Shown here: one piece after another, positions 61,801-64,000 of the stretch
How positions within the stretch are numbered: position 1 is the first letter of the stretch
How the letters are laid out: every line of letters starts with the position of its first letter
DNA from: Escherichia coli
GTDB lineage: Bacteria > Pseudomonadota > Gammaproteobacteria > Enterobacterales > Enterobacteriaceae
Reading direction: 5' to 3' (one strand)
NCBI RefSeq assembly: GCF_030013205.1
Contig: NZ_CP122648.1
DNA length: 64,000 nucleotides
Made by a program: the position numbers

Positions 61801-64000
61801 CAAAATCGCCCGCGGTTTGACGCCGCGCGGCATCGCATGATGTTTCTGCCAGAAACGTAGATAGCTGCCAAACCATGAGCGGTACAGCAACCAGGCGTGA
61901 AAGCGCGGGGAAGAACGGGCAAAGCACCAGGCCGCCAGCAGGATAAACGGCGTCGTCGGTAATACCGGTAATACCACGCCCAGCGTACCCAGCACTACCG
62001 CCAGCCAGCCAATGATGATTAAAATGATTCGTTGCATATTGAGTGTTGTCAGCTTACAGAGTTGCTACTTTAGCATAACAATTATCATTTTCATTGAGGT
62101 CTTATCGTGAAAACCGCCCTGCTGCTGGAAAAACTGGAAGGACAGCTCGCCACGCTGCGCCAGCGTTGTGCCCCGGTAGCGCAATTTGCCACGCTAAGTG
62201 CCCGCTTTGACAGGCACCTTTTTCAGACCCGTGCGACAACACTGCAGGCTTGTCTCGATGAGGCGGGCGATAATCTGGCTGCGCTTCGTCATGCGGTTGA
62301 GCAGCAACAGCTGCCGCAAGTGGCCTGGCTGGCTGAACATCTGGCGGCGCAACTGGAGGCTATAGCGCGTGAAACCATAGCCTGGTCGCTACGCGAGTGG
62401 GATAGCGCACCACCCAAAATTGCCCGCTGGCAGCGTAAACGTATTCAGCATCAGGATTTTGAACGGCGGCTACGTGAGATGGTAGCCGAACGTCGAGCCC
62501 GCCTGGCGCGGGTGACCGATCTCGTGGAACAGCAAACGCTGCATCGTGAAGTGGAAGCCTATGAAGCGCGCCTGGCACGCTGCCGCCATGCGCTGGATAA
62601 AATCGAAAACAGGCTAGCGCGTTTAACCCGCTAGCAATGGAGAAAGTATGTCACTGGAAAATGCCCCTGACGATGTCAAACTGGCTGTCGATTTGATTGT
62701 GCTGCTGGAAGAAAATCAGATCCCAGCGCGCACCGTGCTACGCGCGCTGGATATTGTAAAGCGTGATTATGAAAAGAAGTTACAGAGCGATGAGGCTTCA
62801 CAAAGCGAGTAAAATAAATATCCTCCGGCATAGCCGGAGGTTTTTCAAATGCGCCTATAAGGCTCTCTTACCAGCCGCGCCCTAACAGGCGCACACGATC
62901 TGACATTTGCATCCAACTTCGTTACTTACGGCCCGTAAACGGGCTGCCCGGATAGGGAATCGATAACTGCTCTCCCATTTTATCCTCTTCAAGCTGGTGC
63001 TTTATGTAATCCTGTATCTTCGCCGTGTTCTTACCCACTGTATCGACGTAGTACCCTCTGCACCAGAACTCCCTGTTCCTGTATTTGAATTTCAAATCAC
63101 CAAACTGCTCGTAAAGCATCAGACTGCTTTTCCCTTTCAGATATCCCATAAACCCGGATACGCTCATTTTGGGCGGGATCTCCACAAGCATATGGATATG
63201 ATCTGCACAGCATTCAGCTTCCAGAATCCGTACGCTTTTCCACTCACACAGCTTTCTCAAAATACTGCCTATTGCTCTACGCTTCTCTCTGTAGAACACC
63301 TGTCTTCGGTATTTTGGCGCAAAAACTATGTGATATTTACAGTTCCATCGGGTGTGCGCTAAGCTCTTTTCGTTCCCCATTGGGACCCCCTTTTGATTTC
63401 TTGTTTGACACTTGCAGTTGCCAGACCGCAAGGTGTTTTAACAAATCAAAAGGGGTTTTAATAACTGGCTCAAAGCTGAAAGCTTTCCGGAACCCCCAGC
63501 CTAGCTGGGGGTTTTCTGTGCACAAAAATAAAGGGCGGCATCACTGTCGCCCTTTATTGTCCTTACCCAACCGCTGGTGTCGGATCGTCGCCTTTGTAGT
63601 CGCGTTTTACTTCCGTCACCTCATCGCCCTTCTCGTTGTGCAGATGCACTTCAAGCTGGTTAAAGGCAATGTTGATGTCGTTTTCACGGCACAGCTGATC
63701 GATAGTACGGTTCAGCTCATCGACAGTACGGCTACGGTCACGCAGTTCACGCACATACAGACGCAGCTCATGATCCAACGTGCTGGCACCAAACGCCGTA
63801 AAGAAGACTTCCGGCATTGGTTCGTGCATCACCCTTGGGTGCTCAGTCGCCGCCTTCAGTAACACTTTACGCACTTTTTCCAGATCGGAGCCATAGGCCA
63901 CGCCGAGACGGATCACCAGACGCGTAGTCGTGTCAGTCAACGACCAGTTGATCAGACGCTCGGTAACAAACGCTTTGTTCGGGATGATCACTTCTTTGCG

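What the first reader, a model, noticed from the sequence alone, without database searches (positions are those of the whole stretch)
62850..63515. IS200 copy inserted between the ybaM and mscK terminators
A complete-looking IS200 (152-aa HUH transposase, characteristic end hairpins) lies in the convergent ybaM-mscK intergenic region, apparently without disrupting either gene or its terminator. I do not remember IS200 in K-12, so this marks the strain as a different lineage. IS200 transposes rarely, so the site is useful for typing.
Basis: partly seen in the sequence, partly recalled or inferred. Interest (0 to 1): 0.35.

Follow-up and report, generated by a model that had tools for sequence, protein, structure and literature searches.

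The report
Intact IS200C beside the mscK terminator
This is an ordinary, intact copy of the known insertion sequence IS200C, sitting just after the rsmS (ybaM) stop codon and next to the terminator that rsmS shares with mscK, and it marks one clone of pig-derived E. coli.

Summary
The element is real and intact. It is IS200C on the minus strand, with a 152-aa HUH/Y1 transposase (H61-I-H63, Y125). The protein is the one RefSeq annotates as IS200C in the identical locus of strain K_EC180, and the DNA is 100% identical to copies in many genomes.

Comparison with empty alleles that have identical flanks shows a 712-nt insert at about 62814-63525, not 62850-63515. The hairpin read as the "ybaM terminator" (62822-62840) is the element's own right end and is present in every copy. 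The empty site has only one bidirectional terminator (63527-63558). The element landed at the 3' end of that terminator's T-tract on the mscK-sense strand, 1-2 nt after the rsmS stop codon.

Neither gene is altered. rsmS now reads into the IS-borne hairpin.

The filled site occurs in 17 of 5,426 complete E. coli genomes, all one porcine ETEC/O139:H1 clone to which the window is about 100% identical. Those genomes hold 19-33 IS200 matches. IS200 sequence occurs in 3,083 of the 5,426 genomes.

Side observation: IS200-group left ends (E. coli, Y. pestis IS1541, many other genera) almost always abut a host intrinsic terminator (74 of 84 flanks, against 2-6% in controls).

Verdict: already known, low interest.

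The parts
62814..63525 (-). IS200C, whole inserted segment (712 nt). The register is ambiguous by up to 3 nt because both junctions lie in A/T runs (62811-62814 and 63524-63528). The unambiguous core is 62814-63523 (710 nt).
   Evidence: Filled versus empty alleles with identical flanks. Limits of the sequence shared with copies at unrelated loci. Indexing of the window sequence.
62922..63380 (-). tnpA, a 152-aa Y1/HUH transposase with HUH at H61-I-H63 and catalytic Tyr at Y125. There is no tnpB.
   Evidence: Aligned to solved IS200-family transposases 2ec2 and 2f4f, with further matches to 2a6m and 2xm3. Motif positions. Y125F is the catalytically dead mutant used in PMC4513863. The CDS at the identical locus in K_EC180 is WP_000526135.1.
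63491..63513 (-). Left-end perfect hairpin AACCCCCAGC-TAG-GCTGGGGGTT. In Salmonella IS200 the equivalent (nt 12-34) is a bidirectional terminator that blocks read-through into tnpA.
   Evidence: 10-bp stem in the minimum-energy fold. Rfam alignment. Function from PMC4513863 and PMC5435999, inferred here by homology.
63387..63455 (-). 5'UTR stem-loop that ends just upstream of the tnpA start codon. [quoted passage not shown]
   Evidence: Fold (150 nt, -35.4 kcal/mol, z = -4.9). Rfam STnc490 match at 63390-63513. Function from PMC4513863 and PMC2515195, by homology.
62822..62840 (.). Right-end hairpin CCTCCGGC-NNN-GCCGGAGG. On the plus strand it is followed by TTTTT, so it is now the first terminator-like structure after rsmS. 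On the minus strand it is followed by ATATTTAT, the right-end tip.
   Evidence: Terminator scan on both strands, fold, and its presence in every IS200C copy examined.
62850..62893 (-). Second, imperfect stem-loop between the tnpA stop codon and the right-end hairpin.
   Evidence: Fold (93 nt, -20.8 kcal/mol, z = -5.0). Function not tested.
63527..63558 (.). Native bidirectional intrinsic terminator shared by rsmS and mscK. On the minus strand its T-tract (TTTATTTTT) ends where the element's left end begins.
   Evidence: It is present in empty alleles. Fold -11.5 kcal/mol, z = -6.1. Terminator scan.
62648..62812 (+). rsmS (ybaM), 54 aa and intact. Its stop codon TAA at 62810-62812 lies 1-2 nt from the element.
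   Evidence: The same protein accession (WP_000051143.1) is annotated at filled and empty loci.
63563..64000 (-). 3' end of mscK, running off the window. The stop codon is at 63563-63565, and the coding sequence and terminator are untouched.

Best explanation
The feature is one intact, presumably transposition-competent copy of IS200C (IS200/IS605 family, IS200 group: tnpA only, no tnpB).

Inferred from family knowledge: it arrived by the family's single-strand 'peel and paste' route. An excised single-stranded circle was joined by the Y1/HUH TnpA dimer to single-stranded target DNA on the lagging-strand template.

Shown here: the join lies at the 3' end of the T-tract that follows the shared rsmS/mscK terminator hairpin, read on the mscK-sense strand. 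This leaves the mscK terminator immediately upstream of the element's left end, and the element's right end 1-2 nt from the rsmS stop codon.

The event is a recent, single gain inherited by one porcine ETEC/O139:H1 clone.

Inferred consequences:
- tnpA sits behind two successive terminators, the host one and the element's own left-end hairpin. Its ribosome-binding site is also sequestered and an antisense RNA (art200) is encoded, so expression should be very low.
- rsmS transcripts now end at the IS-borne right-end hairpin plus TTTTT instead of the native terminator.
- mscK termination is unchanged.
For: Identity and intactness:
- establish the family, the motifs and 100% identity to other copies.
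- The two ends are not inverted repeats of each other (6 of 40 positions match).

Exact insertion:
- Empty alleles with 100% identical flanks differ only by the 712-nt insert.

The right-end hairpin belongs to the element:
-.

The insertion point is the end of a terminator T-tract:
- True in the window and in 12 of 12 independent E. coli copies.
- 74 of 84 unique left-end flanks across many genera pass a strict hairpin-plus-T-tract test, against 2.4% of random positions and 5.8% of random positions that follow TT.
- Flank consensus T-T-T-N-T | T-G-K.

Clonal distribution:
- 17 of 5,426 genomes.
- The window is 100.0% identical over 24.9 kb to those 17, and the next genome is at 99.0%.

Orientation:
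- In ETEC4079 the record starts at dnaA on the plus strand and the locus lies at 3.77-3.80 of 5.18 Mb on the plus strand.
- In K-12, mscK and dnaX are on the plus strand at 0.49 Mb.
- The fork should therefore run from high to low window coordinates. tnpA is co-directional with it and the element's top strand lies on the lagging-strand template, as the family rule predicts (PMC5027513).

Regulation:
- Regulatory features are taken from PMC4513863, PMC5435999 and PMC2515195.
Against: - 'Transposition-competent' is inferred only from an intact ORF, intact ends and identity to many copies.
- The exact cleavage positions cannot be read because both junctions lie in T/A runs.
- With equally identical flanks, the window copy adds 712 nt but the independent O158:H23 copy adds 711 nt. 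One junction therefore carries a 1-nt slip that I cannot explain with certainty.
- The O158:H23 copy is in the opposite orientation. If that chromosome is collinear with K-12, its top strand is on the leading-strand template, so the lagging-strand rule is not absolute.
- The replication direction is inferred from gene order and record layout, not measured. GC skew in the window is only weakly negative.
- Termination of rsmS at the right-end hairpin is predicted by a consensus scan only.
Confidence: 0.9

Rival explanations
1. One reading: the element spans about 62850-63515 and sits between two pre-existing terminators, one for ybaM (62822-62846) and one for mscK.
For: On the plus strand, 62822-62840 plus TTTTT looks exactly like an intrinsic terminator placed 10 nt after the ybaM stop codon.
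Against: Empty alleles with identical flanks lack that hairpin entirely and have 38 nt between the two stop codons, holding a single terminator. The hairpin and its flanks occur in every IS200C copy at unrelated loci.
Confidence: 0.02
2. The copy is a decayed relic that can no longer move.
For: IS200 is reported as nearly dormant in the laboratory (PMC4513863). Frameshifted copies do exist, for example L013.
Against: - The ORF is full length with HUH and Y125.
- 691 nt spanning nearly the whole element are 100% identical to copies in many genomes.
- Both subterminal hairpins are intact.
- Match counts differ (19-33) among genomes of the same clone that share this site, which suggests ongoing movement of identical copies.
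Confidence: 0.07
3. The element is ancestral at this site and was lost by precise excision in most E. coli, rather than gained in one clone.
For: Excision in the IS200/IS605 family is seamless, so an excised site cannot be told apart from a site that was never occupied.
Against: Only 17 of 5,426 genomes, forming one near-identical clone, carry it. Genomes with 100% identical flanks from a human, a chicken and another human source are empty. The copy is 100% identical to other copies, which argues for recent arrival.
Confidence: 0.03
4. The link between IS200 left ends and host terminators comes from selection after insertion, or from shielding of tnpA, rather than from target choice by TnpA. 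On this view insertions land at any T-rich site and only those behind terminators persist.
For: - Insertions inside genes would be purged.
- A terminator upstream limits transposase expression, the interpretation offered in bioRxiv 10.1101/2025.07.22.666184.
- IS200 hisD984 was isolated as a polar insertion mutant in a coding gene (PMC4513863).
Against: - The register is exact: the left end starts right at the end of the T-tract, with flank consensus TTTNT.
- The orientation is fixed: it is always the left end that faces the T-tract.
- Controls at random positions following TT pass the test at only 5.8%.
- One terminator was hit twice, once on each strand's T-tract.
- Tandem IS1541 copies have a left end abutting the previous copy's right-end hairpin plus TTTAT.
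- None of this excludes a contribution from selection.
Confidence: 0.3

Closest known systems
IS200 of Salmonella enterica (LT2) and its E. coli isoform IS200C
   Same: - A single 152-aa Y1/HUH transposase with catalytic Y125, about 0.7 kb, no terminal inverted repeats.
- A left-end terminator hairpin followed by a 5'UTR stem-loop (full-length Rfam STnc490 match).
- A right-end hairpin.
- RefSeq annotates the identical copy as IS200C.
   Different: Nothing of substance. The inserted length is 712 nt here, against the 707 bp quoted for Salmonella IS200 in PMC4513863. I could not align to the ISfinder reference sequences.
IS1541 of Yersinia pestis
   Same: The left-end hairpin 17-mer is identical and the right-end hairpin and tip are the same (loci L120-L135). 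All Y. pestis copies retrieved also sit directly 3' of a hairpin plus T-tract.
   Different: The left-end tip reads GTGCCCAG rather than GTGCACAG. Y. pestis also holds tandem copies with a 710-bp unit.
IS608 (Helicobacter pylori) and ISDra2, the mechanistic paradigms of the IS200/IS605 family
   Same: The transposase fold family is the same (2a6m at 3.9e-19, 2xm3 at 1.9e-16). Both have subterminal hairpins, insert without obvious duplication 3' of a short target, and show a lagging-strand-template bias (PMC5027513, PMC2806898).
   Different: IS608 and ISDra2 carry tnpB and use fixed targets (TTAC, TTGAT). Here the apparent target is the degenerate T-rich end (TTNT) of an intrinsic terminator. 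Base-pairing between guide and cleavage sites was not tested for IS200.
Group IIC introns
   Same: By analogy only: these are mobile elements that home to the 3' side of intrinsic terminator stem-loops (background statement in PMC7923331).
   Different: An unrelated mechanism (retrohoming by an RNA-protein particle) and no sequence relationship.

Membership tests
IS200/IS605 family, IS200 group (IS200C) | Encodes a Y1 HUH transposase (TnpA) with the HUH motif and a catalytic tyrosine | tested here: met
   Pfam Y1_Tnp 130.7 bits against a cut-off of 23. NCBIfam transpos_IS200 147.7 bits against a cut-off of 55. Aligned to PDB 2ec2 and 2f4f, with further matches to 2a6m. H61-I-H63 and Y125 located.
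IS200/IS605 family, IS200 group (IS200C) | tnpA is the only gene (no tnpB) and the element is about 0.7 kb | tested here: met
   The 712-nt insert holds one family-matching ORF of 152 aa. The other ORFs inside it are mechanical overlaps.
IS200/IS605 family, IS200 group (IS200C) | No terminal inverted repeats, with subterminal hairpins at both ends | tested here: met
   The two ends match as inverted repeats at only 6 of 40 positions. Left-end hairpin 63491-63513 and right-end hairpin 62822-62840 appear in the folds.
IS200/IS605 family, IS200 group (IS200C) | Insertion without target-site duplication | tested here: inconclusive
   Filled minus empty is 712 nt with no repeated flank other than T/A of the homopolymer runs. 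A 1-2-nt 'duplication' of T cannot formally be told apart from terminal T residues of the element. The 711 versus 712 difference between two clean pairs remains unexplained.
IS200/IS605 family, IS200 group (IS200C) | IS200-type left-end regulatory region: terminator hairpin, Shine-Dalgarno-sequestering stem-loop, art200/STnc490 locus | tested here: met
   Rfam RF01405 matched over model positions 1-124 of 124 at 146.4 bits, against a gathering score of 56. Fold z = -4.9. The Rfam model matches the tnpA-sense strand, whereas art200 is the antisense transcript (PMC4513863).
IS200/IS605 family, IS200 group (IS200C) | Near-identity to the catalogued IS200C sequence | tested here: met
   100% identity over 691 nt to many copies that RefSeq names IS200C. 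The CDS at the identical K_EC180 locus is annotated IS200C. The ISfinder reference sequence itself was not available, so this rests on RefSeq naming.
IS200/IS605 family, IS200 group (IS200C) | Active (top) strand on the lagging-strand template | tested here: met
   tnpA is co-oriented with dnaX, apt and mscK. The locus lies at 3.8 of 5.18 Mb in a record that starts at dnaA. This is an inference from layout, not a measurement.
IS200/IS605 family, IS200 group (IS200C) | Single-strand excision and integration catalysed by TnpA | not testable with these tools
   This needs in vivo or in vitro assays. It is taken from family knowledge (PMC5027513, PMC3597680).

The most novel reading that the evidence does not exclude
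IS200-group transposases may not pick a bare tetranucleotide. They may recognise host intrinsic terminators on single-stranded DNA: a GC-rich hairpin followed by a T-tract ending TTNT. That structure resembles the element's own right end (hairpin plus ATATTTAT).

This would explain four observations:
- almost every left end, from E. coli to Yersinia, Vibrio, Desulfovibrionaceae and Bacillota, abuts a terminator;
- the same rsmS/mscK terminator was hit on both of its strands in different lineages;
- tandem IS1541 copies form;
- the elements are so well tolerated and so well silenced.

In the papers I could search I found only a statistical note that terminator-like sequences are enriched upstream of IS200/IS605 elements (bioRxiv 10.1101/2025.07.22.666184). 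I found no description of this as target-site choice, but most of the older IS200 and IS1541 literature is not in the held library.
Probability: 0.3. Interest if true: 0.5.

Novelty: already known. Interest (0 to 1): 0.15.

Why it matters
For the finding as given, it matters little. It is a catalogued insertion sequence that RefSeq already annotates at this exact site in 17 genomes. Its practical value is as a junction-specific marker of one porcine ETEC/O139:H1 clone.

The corrections do matter for annotation. The element's own right-end hairpin can be mistaken for a host terminator, and IS200 boundaries set by eye tend to be too short.

The side observation, that IS200-group elements land precisely at the end of intrinsic-terminator T-tracts, would have wider use if it reflects target choice by the transposase. 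It would give a simple rule for predicting insertion sites. It would explain the elements' low cost and low expression. It would also suggest that some 3'UTR-derived small RNAs seen next to IS200 copies are simply the terminators the element targeted.

Tried and rejected
- A search for a second copy in the window found only one left-end hairpin.
- Weak Rfam matches below threshold (Ysr202, ncS025, MicX) were rejected. All fall far below their gathering scores and simply overlap terminator hairpins.
- I tried to fix the exact element length from other filled/empty pairs against K-12. The rph-pyrE pair gave 712, guaA-yfgI gave 711 and ecnB-gdx gave 710. K-12 flanks differ in T-run length and sequence, so only the two pairs with identical flanks (712 in the window, 711 in O158:H23) are trustworthy. 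The exact termini stay ambiguous.
- Seven literature searches for an explicit statement that IS200 or IS1541 targets terminators found none. The review I wanted under PMC4498411 is not held.
- I considered that the upstream hairpin plus T-tract might travel with the element. This was rejected because the hairpin sequences differ at every locus and are present in the empty alleles.
- Genome-wide absence of IS200 from K-12 could not be checked, because the similarity search cannot be restricted to one record. Only the K-12 locus itself was checked.

Full report
**What is there**

The minus strand of 62.8-63.5 kb carries a 152-aa ORF (62922-63380).
- It matches Pfam Y1_Tnp (3.8e-38) and NCBIfam transpos_IS200 (1.9e-43).
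- It aligns over its whole catalytic core to solved IS200-family transposases 2ec2, 2f4f, 2a6m and 2xm3.
- The HUH motif is H61-I-H63 and the tyrosine is Y125. Y125 is the residue mutated to make catalytically dead IS200 TnpA in PMC4513863.
- Upstream of the ORF, 63390-63513 matches Rfam STnc490 from model position 1 to 124 (146 bits against a gathering score of 56). This is the IS200 left end: a perfect 10-bp hairpin (63491-63513), a small second hairpin, and the long 5'UTR stem-loop (63387-63455).
- RefSeq annotates the identical sequence in strain K_EC180 as 'IS200/IS605-like element IS200C family transposase', WP_000526135.1.
- A 691-nt stretch spanning nearly the whole element (62840-63530) is 100% identical to copies in many genomes.
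- Only one copy lies in the window.

The observation of an intact IS200 is therefore correct.

**Boundaries and the supposed two terminators**

I compared the window with empty alleles.
- O157:H7 Xuzhou21 reads ...GCGAGTAAAAAATAAAGGGCGGC....
- Three genomes whose flanks are 100% identical to the window over 449 nt (Z1323HEC0462, NY1601, OZ547043) have the same empty sequence.
- The window has GAGT-AAAA-TAAATATCC...GTGCAC-AAAAA-TAAAGGG. The insert is therefore exactly 712 nt: a 710-nt core at 62814-63523 plus two A/T residues that cannot be assigned to one side.

In the empty state the rsmS and mscK stop codons are 38 nt apart and share one bidirectional terminator (63527-63558 in the window; fold z = -6.1).

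It is present, with its flanks, in all 12 other IS200C copies I fetched from unrelated loci. It is the element's right end.

**Where exactly it landed, and what changed**

Read on the element's top strand (the window's minus strand), the junction is mscK stop ... AAAGGGCGACAGTGATGCCGCCC TTTATTTTT | GTGCACAG.... The left end starts at the 3' end of the T-tract of the mscK-sense reading of the terminator. The right-end tip lies 1-2 nt from the rsmS stop codon TAA (62810-62812).
- Both coding sequences are unchanged: the rsmS and mscK products carry the same accessions at the filled locus of K_EC180 and at an empty locus.
- mscK keeps its hairpin and T-tract.
- rsmS has lost its direct access to the native terminator. 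It now meets the IS-borne right-end hairpin followed by TTTTT, which the consensus scan calls terminator-like. That rsmS stops there is an inference.
- tnpA sits behind the host terminator and its own left-end terminator hairpin. According to PMC5435999, the left-end hairpin stops about 85% of incoming transcripts in Salmonella.
- The ribosome-binding site is sequestered and the antisense RNA art200 is encoded opposite the 5'UTR (PMC4513863, PMC2515195).

**Mechanism**

IS200/IS605 elements move as single strands. TnpA excises the top strand as a circle and pastes it 3' of a short target on single-stranded DNA, preferentially on the lagging-strand template (PMC5027513; PMC2806898).

The orientation here fits that rule.
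- In K-12, mscK, apt and dnaX are on the plus strand at 0.49 Mb, so the window is the reverse complement of K-12 coordinates.
- In ETEC4079 the record begins at dnaA on the plus strand, and the locus lies at 3.77-3.80 of 5.18 Mb on the plus strand.
- The fork should therefore travel from high to low window coordinates. tnpA is co-directional with it and the top strand lies on the lagging-strand template.
- GC skew on the window's plus strand is weakly negative, which is consistent.

These steps are inferred, not shown.

**Distribution and value for typing**
- IS200 sequence is found in 3,083 of 5,426 complete E. coli genomes, with up to 35 matching places per genome and some on plasmids. Its presence alone says little.
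- The filled rsmS-mscK junction occurs in 17 genomes, all from pigs or wild boar: ETEC strains, O139:H1 strains, K_EC180 and EC556/571/581.
- The window is 100.0% identical to those 17 over 24.9 kb, and the next best genome is at 99.0%. The junction therefore marks one clone.
- Those genomes hold 19-33 IS200 matches each, so the element has multiplied in this background. The differing counts suggest it may still be moving.
- The spacer has been hit independently in other lineages. O158:H23 CFIAFB20140388 has IS200C at the other T-tract of the same terminator, in the opposite orientation, with an insert of 711 nt. SC418 has a diverged IS200 behind a different terminator, next to an IS621. Typing should use junction sequences, not amplicon size.
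- K-12 and B-type strains carry about 170 bp of REP-like sequence and a different rsmS 3' end in this spacer, and no IS.

**A pattern noticed on the way**
- In all 12 independent E. coli copies with both ends captured, the left end directly follows a GC-rich hairpin plus T-tract. In 10 of them this is the terminator of an annotated gene that is co-oriented with tnpA (rph, yfeX, guaA, plaP, araE, tcyJ, ecnB, lom, mscK, a phage head gene). The other two, L004 and L010, have a terminator-like hairpin but no co-oriented gene annotated in the fetched stretch.
They include Yersinia pestis (IS1541), Vibrio ruber, Brenneria, Edwardsiella, Dickeya, Mailhella, Desulfovibrio, Oxalobacter, Sutterella and Bacillota genomes assembled from metagenomes.
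- Of 84 unique IS200-like left-end flanks, 74 pass a strict hairpin-plus-T-tract test. The rate is 2.4% at random positions and 5.8% at random positions preceded by TT. Most of the 10 failures are visibly imperfect terminators.
- The flank consensus is T(72%) T(97%) T(88%) N T(100%) | T G K. It resembles the element's own right-end tip...hairpin-ATATTTAT.
- Y. pestis also has tandem IS1541 copies in which a left end abuts the previous copy's right end.

I read this as target choice for the end of terminator T-tracts, possibly because a terminator on single-stranded DNA mimics the right end. Selection after insertion is a live alternative. [quoted passage not shown] I found no paper that describes it as site choice, but the older IS200 and IS1541 literature is mostly outside the searchable library.

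**Unresolved**
- The two clean filled/empty pairs give 712 nt and 711 nt.
- Because the flanks are T-runs, cleavage might slip by one position, or a homopolymer indel might have followed insertion. I cannot tell which.

**Verdict**

This is a known element at a site already annotated in public genomes: ordinary and of low interest. Its boundaries and its 'two terminators' picture do not.

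Noticed in passing
window 63524-63558 and loci L004-L014, L016-L136: IS200-group left ends (IS200C, IS1541 and relatives in many genera) sit directly 3' of host intrinsic terminators. 12 of 12 E. coli copies do so, and 74 of 84 unique flanks across genera, against 2.4-5.8% in controls. The flank consensus is TTTNT|TGK, which resembles the element's own right-end tip.
   Followed up: partly
L136 (NZ_CP076709.1, O158:H23) and L004 (NZ_LR778147.1, SC418): There are two further independent IS200 insertions in the rsmS-mscK spacer. One is at the same terminator but on the other side and in the opposite orientation (711-nt insert). The other is behind a different terminator, next to an IS621.
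   Followed up: partly
L121, L122, L124 (Yersinia pestis NCTC5923): Tandem IS1541 copies with a 710-bp unit. The left end of one copy abuts the right-end hairpin plus TTTAT of the previous copy.
   Followed up: no
window 18068-37722 (-), with 14730-18064 (-): A giant BapA-like adhesin gene is split into two ORFs that overlap in different frames at 34498-34573: 1074 aa with BapA_N and Big_13 domains, and 5501 aa with Big_13, FG-GAP and RTX repeats. This is probably a frameshift. It is followed by ABC transporter and HlyD genes, as expected for type I secretion. The region has GC of 0.60-0.62 and a strongly negative AT skew.
   Followed up: partly
L002 470-680 and L015 5400-5610 (K-12 and B-type strains): The rsmS-mscK spacer is polymorphic. 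K-12-like strains have about 170 bp of REP-like palindromes, a different terminator and a different rsmS C-terminus. The window and O157 have a 38-nt spacer.
   Followed up: no
window 59499-59563 (-), 45740-45823 (-), 51499-51576 (-), 11765-11842 (+): Rfam matches above the gathering score: the DnaX frameshift element, sroB, and two naRNA4 (CssrE) copies.
   Followed up: no
window 63390-63513: The Rfam STnc490 model matches the tnpA-sense strand, whereas the literature describes STnc490/art200 as the antisense transcript. The family model appears to represent the sense 5'UTR structure.
   Followed up: no
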